The translations under genes and the position numbers were made by a program. This document shows positions 1 to 12,917 of a DNA stretch of 27,278 nucleotides, piece after piece. The notes below the pieces were generated by a model. The model had not been told where the DNA came from. It saw only the letters and a program-made list of their open reading frames with translations, and ran no database searches. The stretch is from a virus (taxonomy: Duplodnaviria; Caudoviricetes). Position 1 is the first letter of the stretch; each line of letters begins with the position of its first letter. Where the stretch lies: IMG/VR virus record IMGVR_UViG_3300019784_003551, positions 1-27,278 of that record. The stretch is one strand, 5' to 3'.

Positions 1-88
1 GCCCAATCTCGCCATGCGCTGCCATGAGTGCCATTGTGGAGCTTTGCACGCCAGCCCCCAAGCTGATAATGTGGATTGGTTCAGTCAT
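1..88 (-). CDS. PAPS reductase-like / PP-loop adenine nucleotide alpha-hydrolase (N-terminal part, runs off window)
   Basis: Manual translation from ATG at 88: MTEPIHIISLGAGVQSSTMALMAAHGEIG. SLGAGVQS is a PP-loop variant (SxGxDS-like) seen in phage PAPS-reductase-like proteins. Confidence 0.75.
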   Translation of the reverse strand, partial: MTEPIHIISLGAGVQSSTMALMAAHGEIG

Positions 89-270
89 ATTGTTTCTCGT
101 CTTGGTGTTTTGGTTTTCATTGGTTCGTAAAAAGGTCGCGCCAGCCAACTTTCGTTGCAACTGCTTTGCCAAGAACTTTACCACCATTATTTATCTCCGT
201 GACTCTTTTCATTAGCCGGAAATACCTACTAGCGGACAAGGCAAAGGTGCGTATGCACAGCGCGGTTTTG

Positions 271-705
271 TTAAGGGTAAGTTATCGTGATTTGCGTGTG
301 CTCTTCCTCGCCTTTCGCGGCTTTGCGCTGGCTCGTTTCAACTTTGCACAGTTCCGGCGAGTCGTCTGGTATGAGGCCAGCGTATCGGCAGCAATCGAGA
401 ACGTATTTTTCACACAGCCCGTCCTCGTCTGCCAGTCTTTTGCGGACGCTTTCAACGCGGACAAGAAATCTTCCATCTGTGCGTCTTTGAACTTCTTTCG
501 CTTCCAATGGTGCATCGCTAGGATCGCGTTCCAGAGCGGCAATCGTCCCGGTATTTTGAGTGTCAGTGTTTGCATAAATTTCAATCTTCGCATCCCAAAC
601 GTCGCGCACCTTCCCGCCTTCCTTGGTCGGCGCGTTCACGTCCACGGCCTCACGATGCACGGGCTTTCGCTCTATCGCTCGGCGGATTTCTGGCGTTAGG
701 TTCAT
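271..705 (-). CDS. RusA-like Holliday junction resolvase, catalytic half
   Basis: RKRLADEDGLCEKYVLDCCRYAGLIPDDS matches the RusA R-x-D-x-D-N...K...D...G...DD pattern; ATGA overlap with the mom-like stop. The first ~75 aa do not look RusA-like. Confidence 0.7.
   Translation of the reverse strand: MNLTPEIRRAIERKPVHREAVDVNAPTKEGGKVRDVWDAKIEIYANTDTQNTGTIAALERDPSDAPLEAKEVQRRTDGRFLVRVESVRKRLADEDGLCEKYVLDCCRYAGLIPDDSPELCKVETSQRKAAKGEEEHTQITITYP
282..575 (-). CDS. Overlapping-frame ORF carrying a RusA-like N-terminal strand, PxxN motif and helix
   Basis: MQTLTLKIPGRLPLWNAILAMHHWKRKKFK resembles RusA-family N-termini (xxIPGxxPSxN...basic helix). Nested within 271..705 in another frame. Confidence 0.5.
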   Translation of the reverse strand: MQTLTLKIPGRLPLWNAILAMHHWKRKKFKDAQMEDFLSALKASAKDWQTRTGCVKNTFSIAADTLASYQTTRRNCAKLKRASAKPRKARKSTRKSR

Positions 706-1433
706 AGGTAGTGTTTTTTGATCGCCATCCGTATCCAGCGATACTTTGCCGCCGTTTGGACGCGCTTTAGTTTCAGTTCATCGCGGCTTTCCGCGACCGT
801 CTTTCCGTTTCTCCGGGCGTGCCGGAAGGCAAAACGGCGGTGACGCTTTTCGCCGTTCTCGTCTTCCAGATGCCACTCGGCATTTGTCATCCCGTGCAGC
901 TTGAAGCCGCTCGCTTTATAGACCGTTCCTTCGTGGCCTTGCTCTGGGTCTGCGAAGGCTATCAGGCAGTCATACGGGTATTCTTTCGCGGCCATCTTCG
1001 ACGTGAGCGCGATGAAGCGGGACAGCGGGTAGTTCAGCGGCGGCTCGGCTCTGCACATCCGTTTGATTTCCAGCACGCGCTCGACGCCGAGGAATTTTGC
1101 CTGATACGGATTCACGCCGATTCCATAGACGATGACGGCATACAGTTCGTTGCTCGCGTAGAGTCCGAAGCAGATGTTTTTGCCAGTCGGGATTCGGTGC
1201 GAGTAGTGCCAGCGCACCACCCATTGCTCCGCCGTTTCATTTCTGATTGGCCGGATTCGGAATTGGAGCGGTGAGGTCGGGTGCGAGCCGCCATCATCCC
1301 CTTGGAACAGGGGAAGCTCTGCGTTTGAGCTATCACCGCATAAATTTGGCCGTGTCCCCGAACCACCGGATGCAGCGAATGAGTGCCGCGCGAGCGGTTC
1401 AGGCAATTCGGACATTGTGGGAGCGGCACTCAT
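702..1433 (-). CDS. Mom-like DNA adenine modification protein (GNAT fold); true start uncertain
   Basis: Motifs IRPI...WHYSH, FGLY...AVIVYG, LEIKRMC, SRFI, LIAFADPEQGHEGTVYKASGF match the Mu Mom family (HY..., ELxR, S/A-F/Y-AD...GHxGxxYxAxxF). Confidence 0.85.
   Translation of the reverse strand: MSAAPTMSELPEPLARHSFAASGGSGTRPNLCGDSSNAELPLFQGDDGGSHPTSPLQFRIRPIRNETAEQWVVRWHYSHRIPTGKNICFGLYASNELYAVIVYGIGVNPYQAKFLGVERVLEIKRMCRAEPPLNYPLSRFIALTSKMAAKEYPYDCLIAFADPEQGHEGTVYKASGFKLHGMTNAEWHLEDENGEKRHRRFAFRHARRNGKTVAESRDELKLKRVQTAAKYRWIRMAIKKHYL
1264..1339 (-). tRNA. Non-canonical tRNA-Gly(UCC)-like element inside the mom-like ORF
   Basis: GCGGTGA-TA-GCTC-AAACGCA-GAGC-T-TCCCC-TGTTCCAA-GGGGA-TGAT-GGCGG-CTCGCAC-CCGACC-TCACCGC-T-CCA: 7-bp acceptor, 4-bp D stem, 5-bp anticodon stem, bulged T stem, U73, encoded CCA; 76 nt. 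Confidence 0.85.
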
Positions 1434-1454
1434 CGCTGATCCGGGACGCTAAGT
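1357..1454 (+). mobile_element. Integron attC-like site (degenerate)
   Basis: R''-like CCCGAAC; left arm CCGGAT[G]CAGCGA[A]TGAGTGCCGC pairs with GCGGCACTCATCGCTGATCCGG leaving two extrahelical bases; R'-like GCTAAGT (one mismatch to GTTRRRY). Confidence 0.65.
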
Positions 1455-1467
1455 GAAGTAAATGCGC

Positions 1468-1770
1468 TCATGCCGCCCTCCAAACGATTGCCTGTTTCCC
1501 GCTTTCGTTCTTTCGTGTCGTGCCCGTGTCGGCTATCTTACCAAGCGCGAGCAATTCAGTCAGGCGAGGTCGGATTGACAAAAGCGACTTGCCAACTTCC
1601 GCCGCGCACTCGTCAGCGGTCAAGTCTTGATGGAAGAGAACATCTAGCACCTTTTGCCGCAACGTGGGCGCTTTCTCTTTCATCGAATCCGCCGCCGCCT
1701 TGGATGTGCCGCCGCGCTTGTAGCCGGGGGCAGCGGGGTATCGGGCAAAGTCTAGTTCTGGATGGTTCAT
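1468..1770 (-). CDS. Winged helix-turn-helix DNA-binding protein
   Basis: TSKAAA...RQKVLDVL...LTADECAAEVGKSLLSIRPRLTEL...GKIADTG...GKQAIVWRA, a common phage wHTH pattern. Confidence 0.8.
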   Translation of the reverse strand: MNHPELDFARYPAAPGYKRGGTSKAAADSMKEKAPTLRQKVLDVLFHQDLTADECAAEVGKSLLSIRPRLTELLALGKIADTGTTRKNESGKQAIVWRAA

Positions 1771-1952
1771 TTGGTTATTTCCTTCTTCAATGCTTCAAAC
1801 ATCAAATCGCATTTCCCCCTTCCGACTTGGGCGATAAACAGCGGCATTTCGAGGAGTGACTTTATGCGATCCATTTGGTTCTGAGATTCGCCCATTTCTA
1901 CAAGTCTGCGAAATATTCTTAGCTGCGCCTTGGTGTATGACTTAGGTTTCAT
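1767..1952 (-). CDS. Hypothetical protein
   Basis: ATGA-coupled at both ends; MKPKSYTKAQ... Confidence 0.65.
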   Translation of the reverse strand: MKPKSYTKAQLRIFRRLVEMGESQNQMDRIKSLLEMPLFIAQVGRGKCDLMFEALKKEITK

Positions 1953-2164
1953 TTGACTCCTTTCTTTTGCTTCTTTTTCCACTTTAAAACGTCATCGCGG
2001 ACAAGCTCATCCGCGTCTGGAAAGTAGGCGTAAGTTTCGCCGTTAAACTTGATTGCCCCATAGTGCCTAGCGATGCTGAATTGCGTCTGGCTCACACCCT
2101 TGATCCCGTATGGAGTGCGCGTGTGAAGTTCACAGCCTTCTAACCCGTCTAGGTGTGTGCTCAT
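1949..2164 (-). CDS. Hypothetical phage protein
   Basis: 71 aa, ATGA overlaps with both neighbours. Confidence 0.7.
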   Translation of the reverse strand: MSTHLDGLEGCELHTRTPYGIKGVSQTQFSIARHYGAIKFNGETYAYFPDADELVRDDVLKWKKKQKKGVK

Positions 2165-2340
2165 TTGATGACTCCCTTCTTTTTGGTAATCTTGACAATG
2201 GCCGATCCGTAATCTCCAAAACTAGCTACGCCCTTCTGGCAATCCATGACGTGCTTTATGCACTGGCGCCTTCCCTTCGAGGTGTCGTATTCGATTTTGA
2301 ACTTAAACGTGGCTTCGATTATTTCGGTTTTGGTGCTCAT
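2161..2340 (-). CDS. Hypothetical protein
   Basis: MSTKTEIIEATF..., ATGA-coupled. Confidence 0.6.
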   Translation of the reverse strand: MSTKTEIIEATFKFKIEYDTSKGRRQCIKHVMDCQKGVASFGDYGSAIVKITKKKGVIK

Positions 2341-2519
2341 TTGATAGTCCTCCCCCATGCTGCCTTGCGCGGAGACTGGCACCCCTGCGCCTGTCGCTTT
2401 GGAAAAATCGCCTCGTAAAGGTAGTTGGTTTCTTTCTTGCGCGGGATGCCGCTTTTGCGATGCCCCGCAGCAGTGCCCGTGCGACGGGAATTAGCTGGTG
2501 ATGGTGTGGCGATGCTCAT
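2337..2519 (-). CDS. Hypothetical protein
   Basis: 60 aa, fills the gap with ATGA overlaps at both ends. Confidence 0.5.
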   Translation of the reverse strand: MSIATPSPANSRRTGTAAGHRKSGIPRKKETNYLYEAIFPKRQAQGCQSPRKAAWGRTIK

Positions 2520-3187
2520 ATCAGGCTTTCCGCCAGCCGCATTTCAACGGCAAGGTCGTCTCGGTTGTATTGCAGCGCGGCTTTTTGGTCGCTCGCCCAG
2601 AGAGTGCCAAAGTCCGCACCTGTTCCGCTCTTTTCGGGAAGCCCTAGCTCGCGCAGGACGGTTGCCAGCGATACGCGGGTGCCAAATTGCGCCCCGCTCC
2701 CCGCCAGCCAAATCTCTTGGAGGCAGCAAATCGCGTCGCTCCAAGGATAGCGCGGTTTGAAGGCGTTAAACACCCGCGCCGGCACTTTGATGCCCAAAAT
2801 CCAAGCGCGCTGAATGAGGAATGGCAAATCGAAGCCCTTGATAAAGTAGCCGCTGACAATGATTCCCTTGTCAAGTGCTCGCAGGATTTCAGCGAATGAC
2901 GCCTCGATGATAGCCGCTTCCGTCATATCGCCGATGTGATACTGCATCACGTTTTCGCCGTGACGGAAGCCGACGATTGCCAGCGTGCCGGATGTGGCGT
3001 GGAGTGCGCCGTTCGCAACTTCGTCGTTGCCGTAGTTGGCGCGGGCTTCTTCAATCTTCGCCGCGATTTTCGCCTCGTCCTTGAGCACGCCCAGCTTCAC
3101 TTTGGCGGGGTCAAACGGAGGTAGCTTGGCGCGAATGTCCGCTTCCGGCATTGTCAGTGTTTCGATGTCTATAATGGTTACATTCAT
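2516..3187 (-). CDS. DnaQ/PolB-type 3'-5' exonuclease
   Basis: ExoI IDIET, ExoII GYFIKGFDLPFL, ExoIII YNRDD. Confidence 0.85.
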   Translation of the reverse strand: MNVTIIDIETLTMPEADIRAKLPPFDPAKVKLGVLKDEAKIAAKIEEARANYGNDEVANGALHATSGTLAIVGFRHGENVMQYHIGDMTEAAIIEASFAEILRALDKGIIVSGYFIKGFDLPFLIQRAWILGIKVPARVFNAFKPRYPWSDAICCLQEIWLAGSGAQFGTRVSLATVLRELGLPEKSGTGADFGTLWASDQKAALQYNRDDLAVEMRLAESLI

Positions 3188-3206
3188 TGGTTTGTATTGG
3201 TAGAAG

Positions 3207-3238
3207 TTCCCGCCGCCGTTGGCTACGCACGGCGGGAA
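3207..3238. terminator. GC-rich hairpin between SSB-like and exonuclease genes
   Basis: TTCCCGCCG ... CGGCGGGAA 9-bp inverted repeat just after the SSB-like stop codon; weak U tail. Confidence 0.4.
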
Positions 3239-3247
3239 TTATAATTA

Positions 3248-3661
3248 CTAGAACGGGATGTCGTCCGGCTCGATGTCGGTCTTTTCCGGCTCCGTTGGTT
3301 TTGCGGGCGCGGCTTTCTGAGGTGCTGGTGCAGCCGATCCCTGCTTAGGAGCACGAACGCGGATGCCGCCGACGAGCTTTCCGCCCATGCTCACGTTTGG
3401 TTCATCGTAGGCAACGAGTTTGACGCCAGCCCAAAGGTCAGAGTCGCGCTGTCCCGTGAACTGGGCGATGATTTGGGCGTTCGTGCTGTTGAGCACCATT
3501 CCCTTTTCTTCTTCGTCAAAGTGAAGCACCCATTTTTCTTCGGGGCCGGAATCGCCCTTGATGATTTCTTGGATGCACTCACGAATTGTCAGCAGCTTTC
3601 CGCGCCCAAGGTCAGAGCGTTTAAGGTAGCTGGATTTTGTCATTTGTCCGATGTCAGGCAT
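3248..3661 (-). CDS. Putative single-stranded DNA-binding protein
   Basis: SSYLKRSDL...KGMVLNSTN...DSDLWAG...GGIRVR phage family pattern, Pro/Ala linker and SSB-type acidic tail DDIPF; adjacent to exonuclease. Confidence 0.7.
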   Translation of the reverse strand: MPDIGQMTKSSYLKRSDLGRGKLLTIRECIQEIIKGDSGPEEKWVLHFDEEEKGMVLNSTNAQIIAQFTGQRDSDLWAGVKLVAYDEPNVSMGGKLVGGIRVRAPKQGSAAPAPQKAAPAKPTEPEKTDIEPDDIPF

Positions 3662-3712
3662 ATATTTGATGTGTTATTGGTTTTGTGTTGTTTGTGTATT
3701 CTAGGGAAAGTG

Positions 3713-4261
3713 TTAAAAAAGAACTGGCTCTTTGATTTGCTGATTCCATTCAGAAATTGGAGCTGCCTGTTTCCTAAGATTGCACTTGGCGCATGAAACC
3801 ACTAGATTTTCGATGCTGTGACTTCCGCCCTTTGATAATGCTATAATGTGATCGGTGTGGCACAATTTTGTGGGCACTCGATTGCAGCACCAATAACAGA
3901 CGGAAAATCTCTTTCGCCTCCATTCCCTATCCCATTCGGACATAACTTTCTGATTTCCTATGGATGCGTTCTTTTTTCTTGCTCGGCGGGTTCTGCATCT
4001 TTCCCTGACTTTTTCTGGATTGGCTGCATTTAGTGCTTTCGCCCTATCCTTATTTGCGCTGTGATATTCAGCATTGTATTTACGAAGTTTTTCTTTGTTA
4101 GCTGCGGCCCAAGCTCTATTTAAGGCCAACATTCTGACTTTATGGGCATTGTAATAATCGGAGTTTCGCACCCTTACAGCCTGCGGGTCGGATGCTTTAA
4201 GCCGCTGATAGCGATCTGCATCGTATAGCTTTTTAGATTCTATTTCCTCTTTAGTTTTCAT
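3713..4261 (-). CDS. HNH endonuclease
   Basis: CYWC...HTDHIIALSKGGSHSIENLVVSCAKCNLRK; visibly more AT-rich than flanks. Confidence 0.9.
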   Translation of the reverse strand: MKTKEEIESKKLYDADRYQRLKASDPQAVRVRNSDYYNAHKVRMLALNRAWAAANKEKLRKYNAEYHSANKDRAKALNAANPEKVRERCRTRRARKKNASIGNQKVMSEWDREWRRKRFSVCYWCCNRVPTKLCHTDHIIALSKGGSHSIENLVVSCAKCNLRKQAAPISEWNQQIKEPVLF

Positions 4262-4383
4262 TTCGCCTCCTTCCGCTTCGCCGCCAGCGCGGCGCGAGCC
4301 TTCACAATGCTTTGAGCGAGCGCGGCCTTGCGCTTCTCGGTCATCGTTTTGCCTCCCTTAGAACTGAATTGCTTGTGAGTCAT
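4258..4383 (-). CDS. Small basic protein with KGG motif
   Basis: MTHKQFSSKGGKTMTEKRKAALAQSIVKARAA..., ATGA-coupled to the HNH gene. Confidence 0.55.
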   Translation of the reverse strand: MTHKQFSSKGGKTMTEKRKAALAQSIVKARAALAAKRKEAK

Positions 4384-4408
4384 TTGCGCTAAAGTATAGA
4401 AAGCGGCT

Positions 4409-4618
4409 TCAATGTAAATCCCTATTTTGTTCCGGGGTGAAAGGTTTCGGCTCATCGTTCGGGCGCAGCAGTTCCGCCTTGTCAAAGCAGGCTTTCATTG
4501 ACACGCGGCCAAGGGTGAACGCCATGATAAAGTCGGCGCGAGTTGTCGTCTGTCGCTTCTCGTATGGGATCGCGCTCCATACTTCATCGGCGGCTAGTTG
4601 GTGTTGATCGGGAGTCAT
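4409..4618 (-). CDS. Hypothetical protein
   Basis: 69 aa ORF with A/C-rich leader like neighbouring genes. Confidence 0.6.
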   Translation of the reverse strand: MTPDQHQLAADEVWSAIPYEKRQTTTRADFIMAFTLGRVSMKACFDKAELLRPNDEPKPFTPEQNRDLH

Positions 4619-4640
4619 TGGTTTGGTTTTTTGTTAGTTC

Positions 4641-4808
4641 TCAATTCAGCGGGCCGGACGCTACTACGGCGCGGAGGTTGTATTCACTACCCCCCAAAGA
4701 TGGCTTCCGCACAAAGCTAGTAGCGGTTGCGATATTTCTGCCGCTGGAACTAAACCAGCCATATTTCTAGTTTCTGCGTGTCTGCTTTCCACGCCGCCGC
4801 TGAATTGA
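4641..4808 (-). ncRNA. Candidate structured ncRNA with tRNA-like closing domain
   Basis: 12-bp terminal stem TCAATTCAGCGG/CCGCTGAATTGA enclosing several internal hairpins; intergenic. Confidence 0.55.
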
Positions 4809-4825
4809 AAGCTATGTTTCATTTG

Positions 4826-4963
4826 TTAAAGTAGGCTGGCAAAAGCGAGTGCCGCGACTATCAGCGCGATACAAAAGCACAGCACAGCGCGGTGAAATTG
4901 TGTTGCGCGCCAGTTGCACATATTGGCGGCGGTTTCCTCTGCGATTTGATAGGGTGTTTTCAT
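4826..4963 (-). CDS. Small membrane protein (45 aa)
   Basis: Manual translation MKTPYQIAEETAANMCNWRATQFHRAVLCFCIALIVAALAFASLL; C-terminal hydrophobic helix; too short for the ORF track. Confidence 0.6.
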   Translation of the reverse strand: MKTPYQIAEETAANMCNWRATQFHRAVLCFCIALIVAALAFASLL

Positions 4964-4966
4964 TGG

Positions 4967-5209
4967 TTAATGTTTTGTGAGCTTAGCAACCGCGTCCCGA
5001 TACTGGCGAACGCGAGCCGTGGTGATTGTCGCCTTGCCGGATTCCATCAGCGAGATATAGCCGTGCGAGACGCTGAGATAGTCCTTTATCGCCGTCAGGG
5101 ATAGGCCAGCGTCTTTGCGGAGCCGCTTGAGACGTTTGCCAATCGTGGCAGGGTTTGAGACTTGGCCGGAGCCAAGGCATTTCGGACAGTTGATTGAATC
5201 GGGTTTCAT
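4967..5209 (-). CDS. XRE/Cro-C1-type HTH regulator with N-terminal CxxCxGxG motif
   Basis: CPKCLGSG then GKRLKRLRKDAGLSL...SVSHGYISLMESGK. Confidence 0.85.
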   Translation of the reverse strand: MKPDSINCPKCLGSGQVSNPATIGKRLKRLRKDAGLSLTAIKDYLSVSHGYISLMESGKATITTARVRQYRDAVAKLTKH

Positions 5210-5276
5210 CGGTGATTTGAAGTTGTATCTAGTTAGTAACGGAGCGCAAGAAAAAAGTGAAAGTTTCTGCTTTTAC

Positions 5277-5414
5277 CTACGTAAAAAAGAGTTTGGCGAG
5301 CGCGAAAAAGGCGAGGTAGCACGCTGCCGCCGCAACGGGGCCAAGCGTTGCGCCGAGAATGACGGCGCGCACGTTGTCGCGGAGGTCGGCGGATCGAGAG
5401 CGGGTGGTTTTCAT
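5277..5414 (-). CDS. Small membrane protein
   Basis: MKTTRSRSADLRDNVRAVILGATLGPVAAAACYLAFFALAKLFFT; A/C-rich leader. Confidence 0.6.
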   Translation of the reverse strand: MKTTRSRSADLRDNVRAVILGATLGPVAAAACYLAFFALAKLFFT

Positions 5415-5458
5415 TGGTTGTGTTATTTTTGTGGTTAATGGTGACTTGTTGGGTGAGA

Positions 5459-5659
5459 TTACCAAGTTGCACGGCGCACAGAGTTTTTCTTGTGCCGCCC
5501 GGTTTTGGTGAGTGTGTTGGTGTATTCAGTGCCTCCGATAAAGAAGCTAAGGAAGCCCCCGCAATCGCGGACGTTGTTGATGTGCTCGCGGGAAACATTG
5601 ATTTCCGCCGCAATTTCAATCAGGTGTTTTGTGCTGTCGTAGGTGCTGGTGTTTTTCAT
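5459..5659 (-). CDS. Hypothetical protein
   Basis: 66 aa, directly downstream of a sigma70-like promoter. Confidence 0.65.
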   Translation of the reverse strand: MKNTSTYDSTKHLIEIAAEINVSREHINNVRDCGGFLSFFIGGTEYTNTLTKTGRHKKNSVRRATW

Positions 5660-5665
5660 GTTTTT

Positions 5666-5694
5666 ATAAAACCATCCTTCCCCGATTCATGCAA
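5666..5694 (-). promoter_or_regulatory. Sigma70-like promoter, probably leaderless
   Basis: TTGCAT-N17-TTTTAT with upstream TG; ATG 6 nt after the -10 box. Confidence 0.5.
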
Positions 5695-6454
5695 GCATTA
5701 TTTTAGCAATCGCTAACGGTTTCTCCAATTTACCTACGCAAAGCGGGGCGAAGATTGTTTTAATGGATGGGGGTTTTGTCCCCGCCGATGGTATATCCCC
5801 GCCACCGGGCGAAGATTTTGATTGCATCGTCCCCGCCAGTCCGTATTCTCCCGCCAGATCGCAAGCCGATGTCGAGCAAGCGAGCAAAGCACTGACGCCT
5901 TGGGTAACTGAGGCTAACCGCAGTTGAAGCCCACACCGTCTCGACATCGGTGTGGGTTTCGTTGTTTTCGGGCTTCTAACCTTCCCGCACTCACGCAAAC
6001 CAACGGCGGTTTCGTGAACCTTGGTGGCGTAATTGCCAAGGCGTGCAAAGCTGGTATCCGCAGCCCTGAAACATGGTGAAGGCGGCAATTCAGCAACAGG
6101 CTCTTCGTGCGCAAGCTCCGAAGATGGAAAGGTCAACCGATGAGGCTGGTCTTTTAGGGTCAACCGTTGAGGTTGAGAGTGCCGTGAGTGGCTACGCAAG
6201 CCAAGGAGGGCAAAGGCGAAACCTGCTCCAGACTCACGCCCGGTGACGGGATGACGGAAACCACAGCGAGGCTTTAAGCGGGCTAGTTCCTTCATGGCAG
6301 GCTCGGAAGCGGGCTTGCTATGCCGTGGTTCCAAGCTCCGCATTATCAGGCTAAGTCCTTCCCGCCACTCCCCATCATAAAGGCCAAGACTCCCCGCCAA
6401 GAGCAGGACACCCCGCCGATCCGGGTAGCAAGTGACGAAGAAGGGCGGTTTCAT
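5687..6454 (-). CDS. Doubtful 255-aa ORF
   Basis: ATGA-coupled start, but no recognisable motif; it spans hairpins, repeats and the downstream promoter. Confidence 0.25.
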   Translation of the reverse strand: MKPPFFVTCYPDRRGVLLLAGSLGLYDGEWREGLSLIMRSLEPRHSKPASEPAMKELARLKPRCGFRHPVTGRESGAGFAFALLGLRSHSRHSQPQRLTLKDQPHRLTFPSSELAHEEPVAELPPSPCFRAADTSFARLGNYATKVHETAVGLRECGKVRSPKTTKPTPMSRRCGLQLRLASVTQGVSALLACSTSACDLAGEYGLAGTMQSKSSPGGGDIPSAGTKPPSIKTIFAPLCVGKLEKPLAIAKIMLA

Positions 6455-6636
6455 CGCTTTCCCCGCCCCGCCAAGGCTGCTTTCGCTTCATCCCGGCACA
6501 GTCGAGCGGCGAAAAGGAAAGCATCGCGCTTGCCCTCGAAATACTCCGTGAGCTTGTCATCGCCAACTTTCCGCCAACGGCATCGGGCTTCGTGTGCAAA
6601 CCATGCGAGGGCGATGAAGGTGGATGCGAGGTTCAT
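6451..6636 (-). CDS. Hypothetical protein
   Basis: MNLASTFIALAWF..., ATGA-coupled. Confidence 0.6.
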   Translation of the reverse strand: MNLASTFIALAWFAHEARCRWRKVGDDKLTEYFEGKRDAFLFAARLCRDEAKAALAGRGKR

Positions 6637-6860
6637 GGCTTCGCTCCTTCCCCGCCAAGAAATCGGATGATTGTGGCAAAGTCCCAAAGTGTTTGACTGC
6701 TGCTGATTTCGATCCCGCAAAAGGCGGTTTCTCCAACTTGTGTGATGCGCGTCTCGGAAAGAGTCGCCTTGTATGTTTTCCCCTTGCGTGTTTTTACAAG
6801 CACCCGGCGCTTGTCCTCGCCAAGGGTGATTCCGCTCAATGGTAGTGTCTGTGTTTTCAT
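6633..6860 (-). CDS. Hypothetical protein
   Basis: 75 aa, A/C-rich leader. Confidence 0.65.
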   Translation of the reverse strand: MKTQTLPLSGITLGEDKRRVLVKTRKGKTYKATLSETRITQVGETAFCGIEISSSQTLWDFATIIRFLGGEGAKP

Positions 6861-6899
6861 TGTATTAGTTTGGTGTTTATTTGTTGTTTTCTGTGTAAA

Positions 6900-7097
6900 T
6901 TATTGCTCCCCGCCGACGATGGTAAGTGCTCCCCGCCGCTGGTGGTAAAGCCTAAGCACGCGGTCTTTGCTCGCATCCGCGCAAGGCCTGCAATGGTTTT
7001 TAGTCGCCAGCGGACGCTTGCCACACTGGCAACAGAGCTCGCGCGCCTTTCGAGCGGCTTGCCAAAGGGCTTGCCGGGATTTGAGCTTGCGGTTCAT
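6900..7097 (-). CDS. Small zinc-finger protein
   Basis: LCCQCGKRP...HCRPC; ATGA-coupled. Confidence 0.7.
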   Translation of the reverse strand: MNRKLKSRQALWQAARKARELCCQCGKRPLATKNHCRPCADASKDRVLRLYHQRRGALTIVGGEQ

Positions 7098-7393
7098 GCG
7101 AGCACCTCCGCGTAATTCTCGGCTGGCATTTTGATCGCACCGATGGAAAGACACGCGCAAAAGTCGCCAGTGCTCATGTATTCGCGGGACGTGTAGAAGG
7201 GCGCGAATCCAACGCGCTCGGCAATCCACTCATGCCGCGCCCTATTGTCCGCGCTGTGCTCGCCAGTGAAGGCGAATGGGGCCGCAATGCTGATTTTGAT
7301 ATACTGCCGCATTGATCCGGCTCCGATCCGGCATCGTTTCAGCTTCACGCCTAGCATATGCTCAAGTGTTGCCTTGTAGTGGATCGCGTTCAT
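7094..7393 (-). CDS. Hypothetical protein
   Basis: 99 aa, coupled at both ends. Confidence 0.65.
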   Translation of the reverse strand: MNAIHYKATLEHMLGVKLKRCRIGAGSMRQYIKISIAAPFAFTGEHSADNRARHEWIAERVGFAPFYTSREYMSTGDFCACLSIGAIKMPAENYAEVLA

Positions 7394-7746
7394 GCTGTTG
7401 CTCCTTTCTTCTCGAAAATGTCTGCTAGTTCCGCCTCGTATTGCGCTGCATCGTCAAAAGTCTCGATGTATCGGGCAAAGGTCGGGTAATGGGGTGCGCT
7501 TGCCGTTTGGCGATGCCAGTGAATAGACTTCTCGCGGGCTGTGCATGAGACTTCGCGGAAGCTAGGGATTCGCCCCGCATAGTTTTTCTGCTTTTCAACT
7601 GTCGCCCATGCAACCTCGTCGCCGGGTTGCCCCGCCCCGCAAAAGCTGAAAACGGTTTCCGCTCCTGCGATGCAACCTCCGCAACTTGTTCCGGCGATTC
7701 CCCATAGCTTGCGCTTGATCCGCCTTGTGAGGATATAGGTGATCAT
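7390..7746 (-). CDS. Hypothetical protein
   Basis: 118 aa, coupled at both ends. Confidence 0.65.
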   Translation of the reverse strand: MITYILTRRIKRKLWGIAGTSCGGCIAGAETVFSFCGAGQPGDEVAWATVEKQKNYAGRIPSFREVSCTAREKSIHWHRQTASAPHYPTFARYIETFDDAAQYEAELADIFEKKGATA

Positions 7747-8261
7747 TTGGTCGCTCCTTTCAAGGCTGCGCGGGCTGCGATGACTAGCGGGTGATGCTCG
7801 CTAGTCGTGATCTGTGGCGCGTTAATGAGTGCCCGCAATGCGGTTTCCACTCCCCGCAACGCCTTGATCTCTGCTGCCGGGTCAATCATCCCGGCGCAAG
7901 CGTTCACGGCTGCGACTATGCGTTCGGCGTTGTCGTGCATCGTGTGTTCATTCCATGCCATAACGGCAACAGGAACGCCCGCTTTCGTCTGTATCTCCAT
8001 AGAGAGATCGGGTCGTGTGTCTGTTTTCCACGGCTCCGGCGTGTGACCGGGTGAAGCTGGCGCGGTGTCCCCGCCAGTGGCGCGATCTGTTGTGCTATCT
8101 CCGGCGATCTGCTGGTAGGATTTCGGCGCGGGTTCTTCGATGATCTTGCCGTCCAGCCCTAGCTGCCGCGCTTCCCAGCTGTCCGCTTTGGCTGCTGCGT
8201 GTGTCGTGGCTGTGCTGAATGGGGGCATTCCTGGTTTGCTGGTTATCGTGTATTTTTTCAT
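7743..8261 (-). CDS. Hypothetical phage early protein (HTPxPW...NAxRIVAAVN motif)
   Basis: GHTPEPWK...NAERIVAAVNACAG motif common in phage early genes; start at MKKYTI after an A/C-rich leader. Confidence 0.7.
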   Translation of the reverse strand: MKKYTITSKPGMPPFSTATTHAAAKADSWEARQLGLDGKIIEEPAPKSYQQIAGDSTTDRATGGDTAPASPGHTPEPWKTDTRPDLSMEIQTKAGVPVAVMAWNEHTMHDNAERIVAAVNACAGMIDPAAEIKALRGVETALRALINAPQITTSEHHPLVIAARAALKGATK

Positions 8262-8290
8262 TGTTGTGTTGTTGTGGTGTTGTTGTTGGT

Positions 8291-8491
8291 TTAGTGCTGG
8301 GGTGAAAGGGTTTTGTGATAGGGGTTCGGCTTGATTGCGTTCGGCCGTGCTGGAAGCTGCCAAGTGCCGCAAATTACGCGCACGTAACTGCCGCAAAAGT
8401 CCGACATCTTCCAAAGCACTCCCCGCCCATCGCGGAAGTGCGTTGCTCCTGGTGCAAAGGTCGTGCGGGTGCTTGTTGTCATCGGGTGCAT
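8291..8491 (-). CDS. Hypothetical protein
   Basis: 66 aa filling the gap in a co-directional gene run. Confidence 0.5.
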   Translation of the reverse strand: MHPMTTSTRTTFAPGATHFRDGRGVLWKMSDFCGSYVRVICGTWQLPARPNAIKPNPYHKTLSPQH

Positions 8492-8498
8492 GGTAGTT

Positions 8499-8918
8499 TT
8501 AGGCCAAGATTAACTCCCGCACCTTTACGGAGACGGAAAACAAATGGTGGTTGAGTCCGTGGTAATCTAGCTGCCGCTCTACTTTTTTGCGGGCGGTTTC
8601 TCCGTCTTTCGCTGTGACAATAAAAGAAAAGGATCGCCCGGTGGGAGATAACACGCTGCCGCGCTCGTCAATCTTCTGCGCGTATTCGTTCGCCTCGATA
8701 ATAAAGAAGAAATCGGTTTTCGGGTATTCGTTCGGCGGGCGCGTGTCTTTTGAATCAACGCGCATTTGCCACAAGTCGAACTCGGTCTCTAGGACTGCCG
8801 GAAGTGCTGCGATCAGTGTCGCGAATCGTTCCCGGTCACGGGTTGCCCAGTGGGTTGATCGTATGCCGTCGTAATTTATCGGCGGGGGTGCTGTTGGTGC
8901 TGGTGTTGTCGTGTGCAT
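8499..8918 (-). CDS. Hypothetical protein
   Basis: 139 aa, A/C-rich leader. Confidence 0.7.
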   Translation of the reverse strand: MHTTTPAPTAPPPINYDGIRSTHWATRDRERFATLIAALPAVLETEFDLWQMRVDSKDTRPPNEYPKTDFFFIIEANEYAQKIDERGSVLSPTGRSFSFIVTAKDGETARKKVERQLDYHGLNHHLFSVSVKVRELILA

Positions 8919-8966
8919 GGTCTTGATGTGGTGGTTTGTGTTGTTTCGGTTGCCGGGTTAATCCCC

Positions 8967-9019
8967 GCCCCGCTTCCGCCCTCCGCCCCGGTGACGGGGA
9001 AAAGGGCGGTGTGCGGGGC
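8967..9019. other. Long interrupted GC-rich hairpin (terminator or processing site)
   Basis: GCCCCGC/GCGGGGC, CCGCCCT/AGGGCGG and CCCCG-GTGA-CGGGG nested stems directly after the 9019..9600 stop. Confidence 0.5.
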
Positions 9020-9600
9020 TAGCGTTTGTGTTTGTCGGTGTGCGCGGCTTTGTCGTGCGGGTCTGCAATTCCGCGCAAGGTGTATTGCTCCGGGTGCATC
9101 GGCGTTCCGTATGCGGTGATCTCGTCCAGTTCTGCGCGTGCTGCTGCTAAAGCGTCAATCGCTGCTGTGTATTTGTTCAGAGCGGCGGCGGCTTTCTTTA
9201 GCATCTCCGGATCGTTCAATGCCTGCTGGCGTGCTGCGTTGCGCTCCCGGCGTGCGGAAAAGTAAGCGGGGTTTTCTTCGTGTCCGCTCTTTATCCCAGC
9301 GACATATTCAAGATCAAGCGGCACGCTCGCCTCGGTGCGGGTCAAGATTAAGTCTAAGCTGGTTTTGTCGGCATAGCCTTGGGGCGTGCAATAGGTGGAC
9401 GTCTGGAGGCAAGTCCAGCCGTAATGTCGGACAAGTCGCCATGTCGCTCCGTTGGGGAGCGGCGGCAATGCGTCTAAAATGCGCGTGGTGATGTTTTTGC
9501 CGTCATAGGGGCGCAATGCTTCGATTACGCGATCCGGCAAGTCGCTTTCAAGGTTTGCGGTGATGATGGCGGCAATGGTTTTTGCGGTGTGTTTTTTCAT
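9019..9600 (-). CDS. Hypothetical protein
   Basis: 193 aa, protein-like composition, A/C-rich leader. Confidence 0.75.
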   Translation of the reverse strand: MKKHTAKTIAAIITANLESDLPDRVIEALRPYDGKNITTRILDALPPLPNGATWRLVRHYGWTCLQTSTYCTPQGYADKTSLDLILTRTEASVPLDLEYVAGIKSGHEENPAYFSARRERNAARQQALNDPEMLKKAAAALNKYTAAIDALAAARAELDEITAYGTPMHPEQYTLRGIADPHDKAAHTDKHKR

Positions 9601-9627
9601 TTGGTGCGGTGTTGTTGGTTTGTTGGA

Positions 9628-10152
9628 TTAAACTTGCTCTACGCTGACAACAGGCGCGGTTTTCGTTTCGTCTGATCTGGTGAAAACCTGCCCGATAAAG
9701 TAAGCGTAGGCGTCTGCCAGTGTTATGCCGTGCGCCATGCTGGTTACATAGTGATATCCGTCTGCATAGGTCACGCGAAAGGCGGGAAGCTCGGCCTTTC
9801 GCTCTTTGATCTGTTGTGCTGCTTCTTTTAAAATACAGACTCCGGTGCTTGCGCTGTTGTTTTCGCCTGCTTCTTTCAAAAGTGCCTCCACGATTGCGCC
9901 GGGATAAATGCGCATTCTGTTGCCTATTCTGCGGATCCATATTGCATCCCATTTGGCAAGGGGGATGTCATTAAAGTGCGGATCGTTGCTGCTCTGGATC
10001 GCTTTTAATCCGATCCGGCTTTCGACAAGCTCAAGCGTTGCAGGGGTCACAAATTGCGCATAGAAGGCGCGGTGTGCGTCTTTGCTTTCCGCTGTGCCGT
10101 ATTTGGGCAAGCTGTTCATGTATTGGGTGCGGGTGATGGTGATCTTGTTCAT
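9628..10152 (-). CDS. Hypothetical two-domain phage early protein
   Basis: 174 aa; HRAFYAQFVTP...HFNDIPLAKWD N-domain and FRVTYADG...VTSM...AYAYFIGQVF C-domain. Confidence 0.75.
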   Translation of the reverse strand: MNKITITRTQYMNSLPKYGTAESKDAHRAFYAQFVTPATLELVESRIGLKAIQSSNDPHFNDIPLAKWDAIWIRRIGNRMRIYPGAIVEALLKEAGENNSASTGVCILKEAAQQIKERKAELPAFRVTYADGYHYVTSMAHGITLADAYAYFIGQVFTRSDETKTAPVVSVEQV

Positions 10153-10194
10153 GGTTTTCGTGGTGTTGGTTTTGTTGTTGTTGCGCTCTAGGGG

Positions 10195-10326
10195 CTACAG
10201 GGTCGCCGCAATGATAGCGGCAATGCTCAAAAGGGTGATGCCGATGATCGCCCGGTGGATCGCCTGTGCGCGGCGATATCTGGCGAGGTTGTGACGGATG
10301 CGGGGTGTGGTGGTGATGGGTTTCAT
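10195..10326 (-). CDS. Small membrane protein
   Basis: Basic N-terminus plus AIIGITLLSIAAIIAATL; ATGA-coupled. Confidence 0.6.
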   Translation of the reverse strand: MKPITTTPRIRHNLARYRRAQAIHRAIIGITLLSIAAIIAATL

Positions 10327-10658
10327 GCTTCTGATCCTTCCTCGGTTGCGTTCCATCCTGTTTGCCATTCGGCCGGGGCCGAGCAACATTGTTCGGCGGC
10401 ATCTTGTCCCAGATAGGACTGACCGCATTCGCGGCATTCCCAAGCCTCGTGTTCGGGGTGGTGTCGTCCGGTGCTTGCGCTGTAAACGTCTGAGACGATT
10501 GAGACCGGGTCGTTGGTGCTGCCCATACGCTCGGCACGCTTGGCAAGGGTCAATGCGGACGCACCTCCGTGGATGGTGTTTGCGCGTGCTACTGCCGCGA
10601 AGTGTGCGCGGGTTCGCTCGTTGTGGTCGGTCAATGTGCTGTAATGTGCTGCTTTCAT
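10323..10658 (-). CDS. Hypothetical protein with CxxC...CC zinc-binding motif
   Basis: WECRECGQSYLGQDAAEQCC. Confidence 0.7.
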   Translation of the reverse strand: MKAAHYSTLTDHNERTRAHFAAVARANTIHGGASALTLAKRAERMGSTNDPVSIVSDVYSASTGRHHPEHEAWECRECGQSYLGQDAAEQCCSAPAEWQTGWNATEEGSEA

Positions 10659-10680
10659 TGTGGTGATGTGGTGCGGTGGT

Positions 10681-11055
10681 TTAGTTGCTCAAAATTGCGC
10701 GAGCGGTGGCGCGGAGTGATTCCGTGTCGCGGTTTAGCTTGCGACGTTGTTCCTCGGTTGCTGCTGTTGCTGCTGCTGTGATTTGCTTAGCCTCGCGCAT
10801 CGCCTGGGCTTTGATCTGCTCGGCGTCGGCTTTCGCGCTTTCGCGGATTTGCTTCGCGTGCTTCGCTGCATGGGCCGGAAGTGCATCGGGGAAAATGTCA
10901 CTTGTGATCGCCTGGATGATTGAGGGGATCGCGTAGTTCAGCCATTCGGCAAGATAGCTGTTCTCTGGCAGGGATTTGGAGAATGCGACTAGTGCGGCGA
11001 TCTCCTGGCTTTTGGTGGGTTCGGTTGGTGCGGTTGTTTTGGATAGTGTAATCAT
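10681..11055 (-). CDS. Hypothetical protein with Ala-rich coiled coil
   Basis: AKQIRESAKADAEQIKAQAMREAKQI repeats. Confidence 0.7.
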   Translation of the reverse strand: MITLSKTTAPTEPTKSQEIAALVAFSKSLPENSYLAEWLNYAIPSIIQAITSDIFPDALPAHAAKHAKQIRESAKADAEQIKAQAMREAKQITAAATAATEEQRRKLNRDTESLRATARAILSN

Positions 11056-11075
11056 TGTGGTGTTTGGTTGTTGGT

Positions 11076-11393
11076 TTAGTGTTTGCGGGCGCGGCTTCCG
11101 TCTGGAACTTCGCGGTAAATTGGATCGCGCTTGTAGTTGATCTGGCTTAGGCGAAATTCGTCGCGCTCCCTATCCTCTGCGCTTGTCAGGCAATTATATT
11201 CCGCGAGGCTGTAAGCGTCATCGTCTGCGATTTGCTCTAATGTGCGGGTGTCGGGGCGTGCGTAGATCGCTGCAATGTCGGCAAGCGTATTGTTCCAATT
11301 ATAGGCGGACTTCATCGCGTCCGCGATGATGTCGGCTAGTTGGGTGGAATGTTTCATGAGTGGTTTTTGTTGGTGTAGGTTGAATGTGCGCAT
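11076..11393 (-). CDS. Hypothetical protein (start may be 11357)
   Basis: 105 aa ORF in the early gene run. Confidence 0.65.
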   Translation of the reverse strand: MRTFNLHQQKPLMKHSTQLADIIADAMKSAYNWNNTLADIAAIYARPDTRTLEQIADDDAYSLAEYNCLTSAEDRERDEFRLSQINYKRDPIYREVPDGSRARKH

Positions 11394-11663
11394 TTAGTCT
11401 TGGATGCTGGCGTTTTGGCATTCTTCGCACCATTGCCCGCCACCGTTCAGATCGCGGAGCGGAAACTCCTGCTTGCAGTCGCGGCACTTGCATTTGATTT
11501 CGGATAGCCATGCGTCGGGGCCAACGCATAGCCCGGCGATGTCTGCTGGGATGATGTTGCCGTTTGCCAGCCGCACTGCGCGGTTGCCGTTGCTGTCTTT
11601 AACGATTTTATATGCGGGCTGCATCGCGTCCGCTGCGTTGGTGGTGGTGGTGGTCTTAGGCAT
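11394..11663 (-). CDS. Zinc-ribbon protein, first gene of leftward operon
   Basis: CRDC...CEEC; ATG 6 nt after the -10 box. Confidence 0.7.
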   Translation of the reverse strand: MPKTTTTTNAADAMQPAYKIVKDSNGNRAVRLANGNIIPADIAGLCVGPDAWLSEIKCKCRDCKQEFPLRDLNGGGQWCEECQNASIQD

Positions 11664-11669
11664 GGACGG

Positions 11670-11698
11670 AGTAAAAGCTATTTCCGCCTTCGTGTCAA
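11670..11698 (-). promoter_or_regulatory. Sigma70-like early promoter, probably leaderless
   Basis: TTGACA-N17-TTTACT-N6-ATG with T-rich upstream segment. Confidence 0.6.
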
Positions 11699-12842
11699 AA
11701 GAAATGTTTTCAAGTGGTAACGGAAAAGCCTGTTTCACCTACGCAAAGGAGCACGAAAATAAATTGAACCGGGGCGAAAAACAGAGCGGGAAAAGGGCTG
11801 GAATTGCAGGCTCGCAATGGGGCGCGTGTTGCCATACCTTGCCAGCATGAGACACACGCGAACAACCAGCGCAGGCACCAGATGCTAAGCACAAGCTGAT
11901 TATCAGCAGCGACAAGAATCTAGCTCACAGCGATGTTCTATGCACGCAAATGTTCCACGGATTGAGAGGGATTGAAGCAAGTGCTGGATTTTTAGCACTT
12001 GGCGCGTCGCCAGATGATCGCGCTCCGAACATCGCAAGCACCTGAACTCCACGGGCTTCCCGCTCGTCCCGCTCCCACCTCTGTTCCTGTTCCTATTTCG
12101 GATGAGTTATATTGTCGGATGTTGTGAAGCAATGGCCTGAGACATAGCCACTTGCGCGGCTCGCGCTAGGTTGCTCGTATGCTCGCACCCAGATCCGGCC
12201 TGCTCGCGTGTCTGCTACTACTCTGGTCTGGTCGTGCTCTGCTGCTGCCATGCCTGCTGCACGCACGTAGCAGGCCAGTGCTCGCGTCCTGTGCTCAATC
12301 AGGCACCGGGAGGCAAACAATCCCTTTGCCGGGGCAGGAGGGCGACCCCACCCCGGCGGAGGGGGCGGACTAGCGGATGCGTAGTTACGTAGGAACCCAC
12401 GTATAGATTTTACCTCAAAAACGGAAAAAGCTGATTTTGCTTGTGAACCTATTGCTATCCTTGGATCAGCCTTGTTCCTGCGATATGGCTGTGTTCCTTG
12501 TTCTGAGTCTGCTGTGGATACGATGTATCACGTAGGAACAATGATTACTTGGACACAAAGCTGTCTGGTATTGGCTGTGACTGCTTCACTCCGCTAAGCG
12601 TTCGCAAGCTCACTAAAGATGGTTGAAGCTGGCTTGCGTTTTAAATGAGCACGCGAGGTGTGAGAGAAAAAGTTTTTGTGTCAAGATTATTCTTCTCCAA
12701 CAGGGGAAAATACTTTTGAAGTGCTGCTTTTTTAGCAGGTTATTTTCACTGGTATGGCAACCATGCCATACTGTTTTATGGGCAAAAAGAAACGCCAGCC
12801 ACGAGGATGAAAATCCACAAAGACCCCATGACTGGCGAAAGT

Positions 12843-12917
12843 TGGTTGCGGGTGCGGGAATTGAACCCGCTGCTTTCAGGTTATGGGCCTGAATTTCTAC
12901 CGATGAATTAACCCGCG
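12843..12917 (-). tRNA. tRNA-Met(CAT), initiator type
   Basis: CGCGGGT-TA-ATTC-ATCGGTA-GAAA-T-TCAGG-CCCATAA-CCTGA-AAGCA-GCGGG-TTCAATT-CCCGC-ACCCGCA-A-CCA; C1:A72 mismatch, A73, encoded CCA. Confidence 0.9.

What the first reader, a model, noticed from the sequence alone, without database searches (positions are those of the whole stretch)
702..1339. Mom-like DNA hypermodification gene carrying its own non-canonical tRNA-Gly: candidate dedicated glycyl-donor system
Seen: 1339..1264 (minus) folds into a full 76-nt cloverleaf with G1-C72, C2-G71, G3-C70, U73, a UCC-containing anticodon loop and encoded CCA. It departs from translating tRNAs in an 8-nt anticodon loop (UGUUCCAA), a D loop without G18G19, a T loop CUCGCAC without T54/A58, and a bulged A in the T stem. 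It directly abuts the Mom domain. Established: those acceptor, discriminator and C35/C36 bases are the bacterial GlyRS identity set; the T-stem pairs 49-65 to 51-63 tune EF-Tu binding; the Mu Mom product is a purinyl-glycinamide (N6-carbamoylmethyladenine); staphylococcal FemXAB (GNAT fold) use non-proteinogenic tRNA-Gly with altered D/T arms. From memory, not checkable here, recent work reports Gly-tRNA(Gly) as the Mom co-substrate. Inference: the phage supplies a chargeable but ribosome-evading tRNA-Gly that channels glycine to DNA modification, i.e. an enzyme plus cosubstrate-RNA unit in one locus.
Basis: partly seen in the sequence, partly recalled or inferred. Interest (0 to 1): 0.95.

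Follow-up and report, generated by a model that had tools for sequence, protein, structure and literature searches.

The report
Glycine tRNA hidden inside phage Mom
A phage gene for a Mom-family DNA-modifying enzyme holds, inside its own protein-coding sequence, a conserved, oddly built glycine-tRNA-like RNA that likely supplies the activated glycine the enzyme is predicted to put on DNA, and the same overlooked pairing recurs at most related phage genes examined.

Summary
Confirmed and extended. The 76-nt cloverleaf at 1339..1264(-) is real, and ARAGORN and Rfam miss it. It lies inside the Mom ORF (702-1433), encoding residues 32-57, a predicted disordered stretch ahead of the GNAT domain.

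It belongs to a strongly covarying viral RNA family with an A bulge in the T stem and bacterial glycine identity bases. The family has three builds, one D-armless. It lies at 87 of 113 non-redundant Mom loci picked by protein. An RNA-only scan found Mom beside 68 of 70 elements with full flanks. It sits at the 5' or 3' end of mom, in any frame, in tandem, or stand-alone with its own promoter, so selection acts on the RNA. Mu itself lacks it.

Mom's use of Gly-tRNA-Gly is published (PMC13219725); ten literature searches found no phage-encoded donor. Best reading (0.62): a GlyRS-charged, largely non-translating glycyl donor for Mom, cut from mom mRNA. Expression, charging and EF-Tu avoidance are untested. 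This scan earlier noted odd tRNA-Gly genes beside mom in three other genomes.

The parts
1264..1339 (-). 76-nt tRNA-Gly-like RNA (G1-C72, C2-G71, G3-C70, U73, encoded CCA); also encodes residues 32-57 of the Mom ORF
1304..1306 (-). UCC anticodon (C35, C36) in a 6-nt loop on a 6-bp stem
1277..1277 (-). Bulged A in the T stem between pairs 50-64 and 51-63; the family signature
   Evidence: 82 of 87 protein-picked elements
702..1433 (-). Mom-family GNAT ORF, 243 aa from the first ATG; the true start (1433, 1415, or TTG 1406) is not determined
   Evidence: Pfam PF25680 E 2.5e-33; phrog_1384 E 7.7e-37
717..1262 (-). Mom catalytic domain (residues 58-239); H76, Y77, R125, S138, D162, Y172 match Mu H58, Y59, R111, S124, D149, Y159; E164 stands where Mu has R151
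1366..1444 (-). Long hairpin that buries the ATG at 1433; attC-like in close relatives; weak statistical support; role unknown
   Evidence: (z -2.2, 8 of 200 shuffles as stable)
1430..1471 (-). 13-codon mini-ORF whose ATG overlaps the upstream gene's stop and whose TGA overlaps the Mom ATG at 1433 (possible translational coupling; inference)

Best explanation
The locus is a Mom-family DNA-modification gene whose coding sequence contains a conserved tRNA-Gly-like RNA, which is likely cut out, charged by host GlyRS and used as a largely non-translating glycyl donor for the enzyme's predicted adenine modification. Shown: the RNA structure, its glycine identity bases, the overlap with the ORF, the linkage to Mom genes, and Mom-family membership of the protein. 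Established elsewhere: Mu Mom uses Gly-tRNA-Gly (PMC13219725); EF-Tu sequesters ordinary Gly-tRNA-Gly away from transferases, and staphylococci solve this with non-proteogenic tRNA-Gly (PMC7826273). Inferred: (1) host RNase P and 3' nucleases release the RNA; (2) GlyRS charges it through G1-C72/C2-G71/G3-C70/U73/C35/C36; (3) the T-stem bulge at the EF-Tu contact pairs and the irregular anticodon arm keep it off the ribosome; (4) Mom takes the glycine to make 6-NcmdA; (5) because excision cuts the start codon from the catalytic domain, each transcript would yield either enzyme or donor, setting a high donor-to-enzyme ratio.
For: Structure under selection: 5'-type set 97.5% of cells paired, 14 of 22 pairs with double changes; 3'-type set 98.3%, 16 of 22; protein-picked metagenome set 97.0%, 19 of 22, including 4 of 5 T-stem pairs in the bulged register; 0 of 500 shuffles reach these. 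D-armless set: 14 of 21 pairs with double changes.

Glycine identity in 87 distinct protein-picked elements: all three acceptor pairs 83, U73 85, NCC 87 (by a parser that favours CC; 7 have weak stems), CCA 72, bulge 82. With the acceptor left free in the pattern, 81 of 82 hits with a good acceptor stem had G1-C72/C2-G71.

Linkage: 87 of 113 non-redundant Mom loci carry the element. Of 70 RNA-picked elements with enough flank, 68 have Mom, 1 has another GNAT and 1 has none. The pattern is found in 0 of 401 genomes of one bacterial phylum.

Acts as a free RNA: it sits 5', 3', across the stop, in all three frames, in tandem, and stand-alone with promoter-like sites (L080: 12/12 promoter plus terminator; L129). 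A tRNA-Gly on the opposite strand flanks mom in Microbacterium phages Antuna and Appa.

Poorly suited to decoding: anticodons UCC 59, ACC 20, CCC 4, GCC 4; U33 in only 49 of 87; 15 of 88 D-armless.

Overlap is real: the Mom frame is open across 75 of 78 5' elements (other frames 12 and 18); an ATG follows the CCA in 1 of 78 and lies within 30 nt upstream in 51 of 78. The encoded peptide is predicted disordered and is absent in element-less kin.
Against: No expression, processing or charging data: the RNA runs were contigs with small shares. Mu Mom works with all three E. coli isoacceptors, and no element was found in Mu, in 7 Mu-like loci (7 of 44 tested), in 15 full-flank Mom loci, or in 16 of 22 named records, so it is dispensable. 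A T-stem bulge need not block translation: selC* tRNA-Cys with bulge A51a is reported to function in translation (PMC5389517 passages). The Arthrobacter and Microbacterium neighbours lack the bulge, and the Microbacterium tRNA looks near-canonical. GGA+GGG are 158 of 395 Gly codons in 20 window ORFs, so a UCC decoder could be useful. Mu's essential R151 is not conserved. The models were seeded from pattern-picked sequences, so feature counts are partly selected. The scans cover the same part of the collection and are not independent.
Confidence: 0.62

Rival explanations
1. It is a dual-use or translating phage tRNA-Gly that refills the Gly-tRNA pool which Mom drains (or which host defences cut), and is not reserved for Mom.
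For: Linkage to mom fits this too. Most 5' relatives keep T54, C56, A58 and often the D-loop GG. Antuna/Appa tRNA-Gly(CCC) is near-canonical. A bulged selC* tRNA translates. GGA/GGG make up 40% of window Gly codons. Earlier scan note e1-5818277 reads a different Mom-adjacent tRNA this way (unchecked here).
Against: 6-nt or 5-nt anticodon loops, 20 of 87 ACC anticodons, U33 in 49 of 87, D-armless forms, and a bulge in 82 of 87 at the EF-Tu-determining pairs (PMC7826273). This bulged family almost never occurs away from Mom.
Confidence: 0.17
2. It is a cis-acting tRNA mimic or processing signal in mom mRNA that is bound by Mom, GlyRS or RNase P to limit synthesis of a harmful enzyme; no charged RNA is used.
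For: Nearly always overlaps an end of the mom ORF, and cleavage would destroy the message. In the window the first ATG is also buried in a hairpin.
Against: Position, frame and strand vary; there are stand-alone copies with their own promoter-like sites and tandem copies. The discriminator, CCA end and C35/C36 are kept together in all placements. This role may coexist with the donor role.
Confidence: 0.13
3. It is a decoy for tRNA-targeting host defences (anticodon nucleases, acetylating toxins) or a +1 frameshift suppressor, and sits by mom only as part of a counter-defence module.
For: Altered anticodon loop; the window subclass has one extra loop base.
Against: Only glycine identity was found. 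The 3'-type and D-armless builds lack the extra base. Linkage is to Mom, not to counter-defence genes in general.
Confidence: 0.05
4. The conserved unit is the encoded peptide (GG[SA]xPT..L[QH]) or a dead relic or attachment site, and the cloverleaf is incidental.
For: The same reading phase is preferred at both ends (open in 75 of 78 5' and 76 of 96 3' elements).
Against: Compensatory changes in all stems. Other frames, stops within the element (20 of 96 3' elements) and untranslated copies exist. The peptide is predicted disordered. No integrase match among the 26 window ORFs scanned.
Confidence: 0.03

Closest known systems
Phage Mu Mom (PF25680; PDB 8BV8; PMC13219725)
   Same: Same family and fold; H58/Y59/R111/S124/D149/Y159 conserved; uses Gly-tRNA-Gly as co-substrate.
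   Different: Mu uses host tRNA and has no such RNA in its genome; 23% identity; R151 not conserved; activity of the window enzyme untested.
Staphylococcus aureus non-proteogenic tRNA-Gly NP1-NP3 serving FmhB/FemA/FemB (PMC7826273)
   Same: tRNA-Gly with GlyRS identity and an altered T arm, paired with a GNAT-type aminoacyl transferase: the working model for this RNA.
   Different: Chromosomal stand-alone genes using weak A49-U65/U50-A64/A51-U63 pairs. Here G49-C65/G50-C64/bulged A/C51-G63, phage-borne, overlapping the transferase ORF, with D-armless forms; the target is DNA. The paper says such tRNAs were detected only in staphylococci.
selC* tRNA-Cys and (8/4) tRNA-Sec with bulge A51a; allo-tRNAs (PMC5389517)
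   Same: Irregular bacterial and phage cloverleafs with a bulged A in the T arm, found by metagenome mining.
   Different: Those have 8/4 or 9/3 branches and translate; this has a 7-bp acceptor, 5 T-stem pairs around a 3'-strand bulge, and glycine identity.
Annotated tRNA-Gly next to the Mom-like gene in Salinibacter phage B2_17 and Microbacterium phages Antuna/Appa; unannotated one spanning the stop of gp71/72 in Arthrobacter phages Martha, BarretLemon, Sicarius2
   Same: tRNA-Gly is adjacent to a Mom-like gene; in Antuna, Martha and B2_17 it is the only model hit in the whole record. B2_17 has the bulge (90 bits).
   Different: The actinophage RNAs lack the bulge; B2_17 and the Arthrobacter copies lack an encoded CCA; none is 5'-embedded. 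No paper found links them to Mom.

Membership tests
Mom family (PF25680) | Profile match above the curated cut-off | tested here: met
   115.9 bits vs cut-off 27.1; phrog_1384
Mom family (PF25680) | Mom GNAT fold | tested here: met
   AF2 model mean pLDDT 85.8; best Foldseek hits are 8BV8, E 2.9e-11; HMM hit to 8BV8 E 3e-13
Mom family (PF25680) | Catalytic residues H58, Y59, R111, S124, D149, Y159 | tested here: met
   H76, Y77, R125, S138, D162, Y172
Mom family (PF25680) | Mu R151 (essential in Mu) | tested here: not met
   E164 at that column; also absent in 13 of the 14 non-Mu rows of the alignment, kept only in JD024
Mom family (PF25680) | Forms 6-NcmdA on dsDNA | not testable with these tools
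   needs LC-MS
Canonical translating bacterial tRNA-Gly | Cloverleaf with covarying stems | tested here: met
Canonical translating bacterial tRNA-Gly | Identity set U73, G1-C72, C2-G71, G3-C70, C35, C36 (PMC9976931 Table 1) | tested here: met
   all present in the window; all three acceptor pairs in 83 of 87 and U73 in 85 of 87 relatives
Canonical translating bacterial tRNA-Gly | 7-nt anticodon loop | tested here: not met
   8 nt between the 5-bp stem, i.e. 6-bp stem plus 6-nt loop
Canonical translating bacterial tRNA-Gly | Unbroken 5-bp T stem; T54/A58; G18G19 | tested here: not met
   bulged A at 1277; C54, C58; no D-loop GG; ARAGORN and Rfam miss it
Canonical translating bacterial tRNA-Gly | Charged by GlyRS, delivered by EF-Tu, decodes on the ribosome | not testable with these tools
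   bench assay needed
Staphylococcal non-proteogenic tRNA-Gly (NP1-NP3) | Weak EF-Tu pair set A49-U65, U50-A64, A51-U63 | tested here: not met
   G49-C65, G50-C64, bulge, C51-G63: works like, is not a member
Staphylococcal non-proteogenic tRNA-Gly (NP1-NP3) | Co-occurs with an aminoacyl-tRNA-dependent transferase | tested here: met
   Mom beside 68 of 70 evaluable elements; the partner is Mom, not Fem
Staphylococcal non-proteogenic tRNA-Gly (NP1-NP3) | Preferred by the transferase and poorly bound by EF-Tu | not testable with these tools
   bench assay needed
allo-tRNA / selC* (8/4 or 9/3) | 8- or 9-bp acceptor stem with a shortened T stem | tested here: not met
   7-bp acceptor and 5 T-stem pairs supported by covariation
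Any Rfam 15 family | Match at E <= 1 | tested here: not met
   no hit at 1264-1339

The most novel reading that the evidence does not exclude
A widespread, unannotated class of phage 'enzyme plus co-substrate' genes: one transcript is either translated into the Mom DNA aminoacyltransferase or cut to release a ribosome-excluded, GlyRS-charged donor tRNA written into the enzyme's own reading frame. The class includes D-armless tRNA-like RNAs outside mitochondria, and the T-stem bulge acts as an EF-Tu block and/or a Mom recognition mark.
Probability: 0.45. Interest if true: 0.93.

Novelty: new variant of a known kind. Interest (0 to 1): 0.86.

Why it matters
Mom's donor was identified only recently and is assumed to be scavenged host tRNA. 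This family suggests that many Mom-like phage enzymes bring their own donor, hidden from tRNA finders and read by gene callers as protein tails (about 1200 IMG/VR stretches match one strict pattern). It would extend dedicated non-translating tRNAs beyond staphylococcal cell-wall synthesis to DNA modification. It would also give a natural case of a tRNA and a protein encoded by the same bases in one gene, and of D-armless tRNA-like RNAs in phages. It is directly testable with GlyRS, EF-Tu and the published Mom assay, and in culturable Arthrobacter, Microbacterium and Salinibacter phages.

Tried and rejected
- ARAGORN and Rfam miss the element. Across 60 related loci ARAGORN called only 7 elements (4 undetermined, 3 Gly) plus one tRNA-Met.
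- Expression: 24 runs were listed, all with small shares and held as contigs; 4 of 24 were laid and show nothing on RNA ends or level.
- Prokaryote genome scan with the clade alignment gave one locus, without the element. The profile search of protein representatives was unavailable, so family-wide prevalence outside my 113 loci is open.
- Other amino-acid versions of the bulged RNA: none found. The one non-Gly, non-Mom hit with a passable acceptor stem (L372) looks like chance. The non-U73 scan returned mostly chance matches plus 15 A73 variants.
- Elements elsewhere in the genome for element-less mom genes: 0 of 5 records, 2 of them near complete.
- No promoter or terminator above chance on the minus strand near the window element; no repeat family of the upstream hairpin in window 1-14000.
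- My first alignment mixed two registers and was split before counting pairs.
- One search mislabelled L196's second copy (it is the 5' element of a second mom gene) and L023 (element ends a second mom gene); corrected. The tree still labels L023 'none'.
- L080's neighbour is a generic GNAT, not Pfam Mom, so it was removed from the Mom count.
- Peptide-only, attachment-site and frameshift-suppressor readings were considered and scored low.

Full report
OBSERVATION. ARAGORN and Rfam do not report it. A covariance model built from 26 sequences of another subclass, without the window, finds it as the only hit in the 27 kb window (56.4 bits, E 1.6e-12). It lies inside ORF 702..1433 and encodes residues 32-57; the Mom domain starts at residue 58, two bases after the CCA.

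THE PROTEIN. It matches Pfam Mom (E 2.5e-33) and phrog_1384. The predicted structure has mean pLDDT 85.8, with residues 1-57 lacking secondary structure and mostly of low confidence, and its best match is Mu Mom 8BV8. Six Mu active-site residues are conserved; R151 is not. The window is the whole held record, a viral contig with HNH nucleases and glycosyltransferases; the host is unknown.

THE RNA FAMILY. Most of the top 120 homologous proteins carry the same tRNA-encoded peptide; some start at the domain without it (read by eye, not counted). An RNA-only pattern gave 120 loci from 7 of 64 parts of IMG/VR, about 1200 stretches in all by the tool's estimate. The elements fall into three builds: 76 nt with a 6-nt anticodon loop, mostly at the 5' end of mom (the window's type); 76 nt with a 5-nt loop, mostly at the 3' end; and 68-70 nt without a D arm, at the 3' end. 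Pair counts: 97.5% paired and 14 of 22 pairs with double changes (29 sequences); 98.3% and 16 of 22 (26 sequences); 14 of 21 for the D-armless set (31 sequences). In 53 distinct elements from protein-picked metagenome loci, 97.0% and 19 of 22, including 4 of 5 T-stem pairs in the bulged register (this alignment was fitted to the model). No shuffle of 500 reached these values; the shuffles ignore relatedness.

IDENTITY. In 87 distinct elements from protein-picked loci (two ordinary tRNAs dropped): all three acceptor pairs 83, U73 85, NCC 87, encoded CCA 72, bulge 82; anticodons UCC 59, ACC 20, CCC 4, GCC 4; U33 49. These match the bacterial glycine identity set (PMC9976931, passages and Table 1). 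The models were seeded from pattern-picked sequences and the parser favours CC, so the counts are partly selected. As a control, a pattern that left the acceptor free returned G1-C72/C2-G71 in 81 of 82 hits with a good acceptor stem (same part of the collection). T54, A58 and the D-loop GG, which the window lacks, are kept in 39, 42 and 29 of 46 5'-type relatives.

LINKAGE TO MOM. From the protein side: of 150 loci, 113 non-redundant; 87 have the element adjacent, 15 lack it with full flanks, 11 are truncated (corrected for L023). From the RNA side: of 77 distinct elements in loci fetched with 900-nt flanks, 68 have a Mom ORF by an in-session profile, 1 has a different GNAT, 1 has none, 7 are truncated. 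The pattern occurs in 0 of 401 genomes of one bacterial phylum. On a 167-protein FastTree, 5' versus 3' placement needs 2 changes and absence 13, so placement is stable within clades and absence is scattered (L023 mislabelled there). Among 22 named records, six have a tRNA-Gly beside mom: Salinibacter B2_17 (bulged), Arthrobacter Martha, Sicarius2 and BarretLemon (unannotated, spanning the stop, no bulge), and Microbacterium Antuna and Appa (opposite strand, no bulge). Sixteen, including Mu, have none, nor do 7 Mu-like loci tested of 44. In whole records of Antuna, Martha and B2_17 that RNA is the only model hit; Mu has none.

RNA OR PEPTIDE, CIS OR TRANS. In protein-picked loci, 3' elements inside the ORF end in all three frames (18, 13, 3). 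Others span or follow the stop, occur in tandem (L021, L140), or stand alone. L080 has a 12/12 promoter match and a terminator; L129 has a promoter match, with mom starting after the RNA. L196 has two mom genes, each with its own 5' element. So the RNA is the selected unit and can act in trans. In the 5' class it is also likely translated: the Mom frame is open in 75 of 78 (other frames 12 and 18), an ATG follows the CCA in 1 of 78, and an in-frame ATG lies within 30 nt upstream in 51 of 78. In the window the candidate starts are 1433 and 1415; the first overlaps the stop of a 13-codon mini-ORF and lies in a long hairpin.

MECHANISM. Mu Mom transfers glycine from Gly-tRNA-Gly to N6 of dA and accepts all three E. 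coli isoacceptors but not mischarged tRNA-Ala (PMC13219725: I read parts 1-2 of 12, the Discussion and passages; two supplements were searched and one could not be read). In S. aureus, EF-Tu sequesters ordinary Gly-tRNA-Gly from FmhB, EF-Tu affinity is set by the first three T-stem pairs, and non-proteogenic tRNA-Gly escape it (PMC7826273, abstract and passages). The bulge here sits between the second and third of those pairs. I infer release by host tRNA processing, charging by GlyRS, weak EF-Tu binding and donation to Mom. I further infer that excision destroys that copy of the message, biasing output towards donor. That RNase P and 3' nucleases would process it, that ACC is rare as a bacterial Gly anticodon, and that D-armless tRNAs are typical of mitochondria are recalled, not from a call.

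AGAINST. Nothing shows expression or charging. The RNA is dispensable for many Mom enzymes. A bulged selC* tRNA-Cys is reported to translate (PMC5389517, abstract and passages). The actinophage neighbours lack the bulge. GGA and GGG are 158 of 395 Gly codons in the window. A cis role may coexist with the donor role.

NOVELTY. Ten full-text searches found no report of a Mom-linked phage tRNA. The Nat Commun paper has no occurrence of 'tRNA-like', 'overlap' or 'upstream'. The 2023 preprint (passages) and the jumbo-phage review PMC7824862 (passages) do not mention it in what I saw. Subscription journals, the bioRxiv supplements and the unread supplementary PDF could hold a mention. Earlier notes of this scan raised the idea for three other genomes; they are unchecked, and one concerns a family said to occur mostly without Mom, unlike this bulged family.

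VERDICT. The feature is real and conserved. It works like a staphylococcal donor tRNA but is not a member of that family, and it is not a canonical tRNA-Gly. New variant of a known kind with an unusual gene architecture; interest 0.86.

Noticed in passing
window 1366-1444 (-); L002, L003, L193, L195, L196, L198, L234 upstream of the element: Long hairpin with attC-like GTT...AAC ends just upstream of the tRNA-mom unit in close relatives (paired motif in 7 of 42 5'-type and 0 of 42 3'-type elements); may mark a mobile gene cassette. In the window it buries the first ATG.
   Followed up: partly
window 12843-12917 (-): tRNA-Met(CAU) with a C1-A72 mismatch (initiator-like) but without three consecutive G-C pairs in the anticodon stem.
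   Followed up: no
L080 558-631 (-) / L353 17-553 (+): Stand-alone element with a perfect sigma-70 match and terminator, convergent on a generic GNAT (PF00583) that is not Pfam Mom: a candidate new Gly-tRNA-dependent transferase.
   Followed up: partly
L096 901-975 (-) / L365: The one full-flank element with no Mom nearby; neighbours are a glycosyltransferase-like and an HTH ORF.
   Followed up: partly
L433, L435, L436, L441, L443, L450, L460, L462, L467, L523, L544 and others: 15 elements with an A73 discriminator, 11 beside Mom; may reflect hosts with a different GlyRS preference.
   Followed up: no
L196 1016-2642, L023 1246-2678: Tandem pairs of divergent mom genes; in L196 each has its own 5' element.
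   Followed up: partly
L021 1373-1517, L140 335-472: Two D-armless elements in tandem at the 3' end of mom; in L021 both lie inside the ORF.
   Followed up: partly
L324 1780-1853, L325 1783-1856, L553 1580-1653: Unannotated tRNA-Gly(UCC)-like gene spanning the stop of the Mom-like acetyltransferase in Arthrobacter phages Martha, Sicarius2 and BarretLemon.
   Followed up: partly
L273, L323, L325, L551, L552, L553: 3'-type mom genes are often preceded by a ParB-like nuclease-domain gene.
   Followed up: no
window 13160-14014 and 19119-23059 (+): Sugar-modification cluster: mannosyltransferase-like, split transketolase-like pair, zinc dehydrogenase and two glycosyltransferases.
   Followed up: no
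L277 1001-1450: Mom-like match in Edwardsiella phage ET-ABTNL-9 where the record annotates no gene.
   Followed up: no
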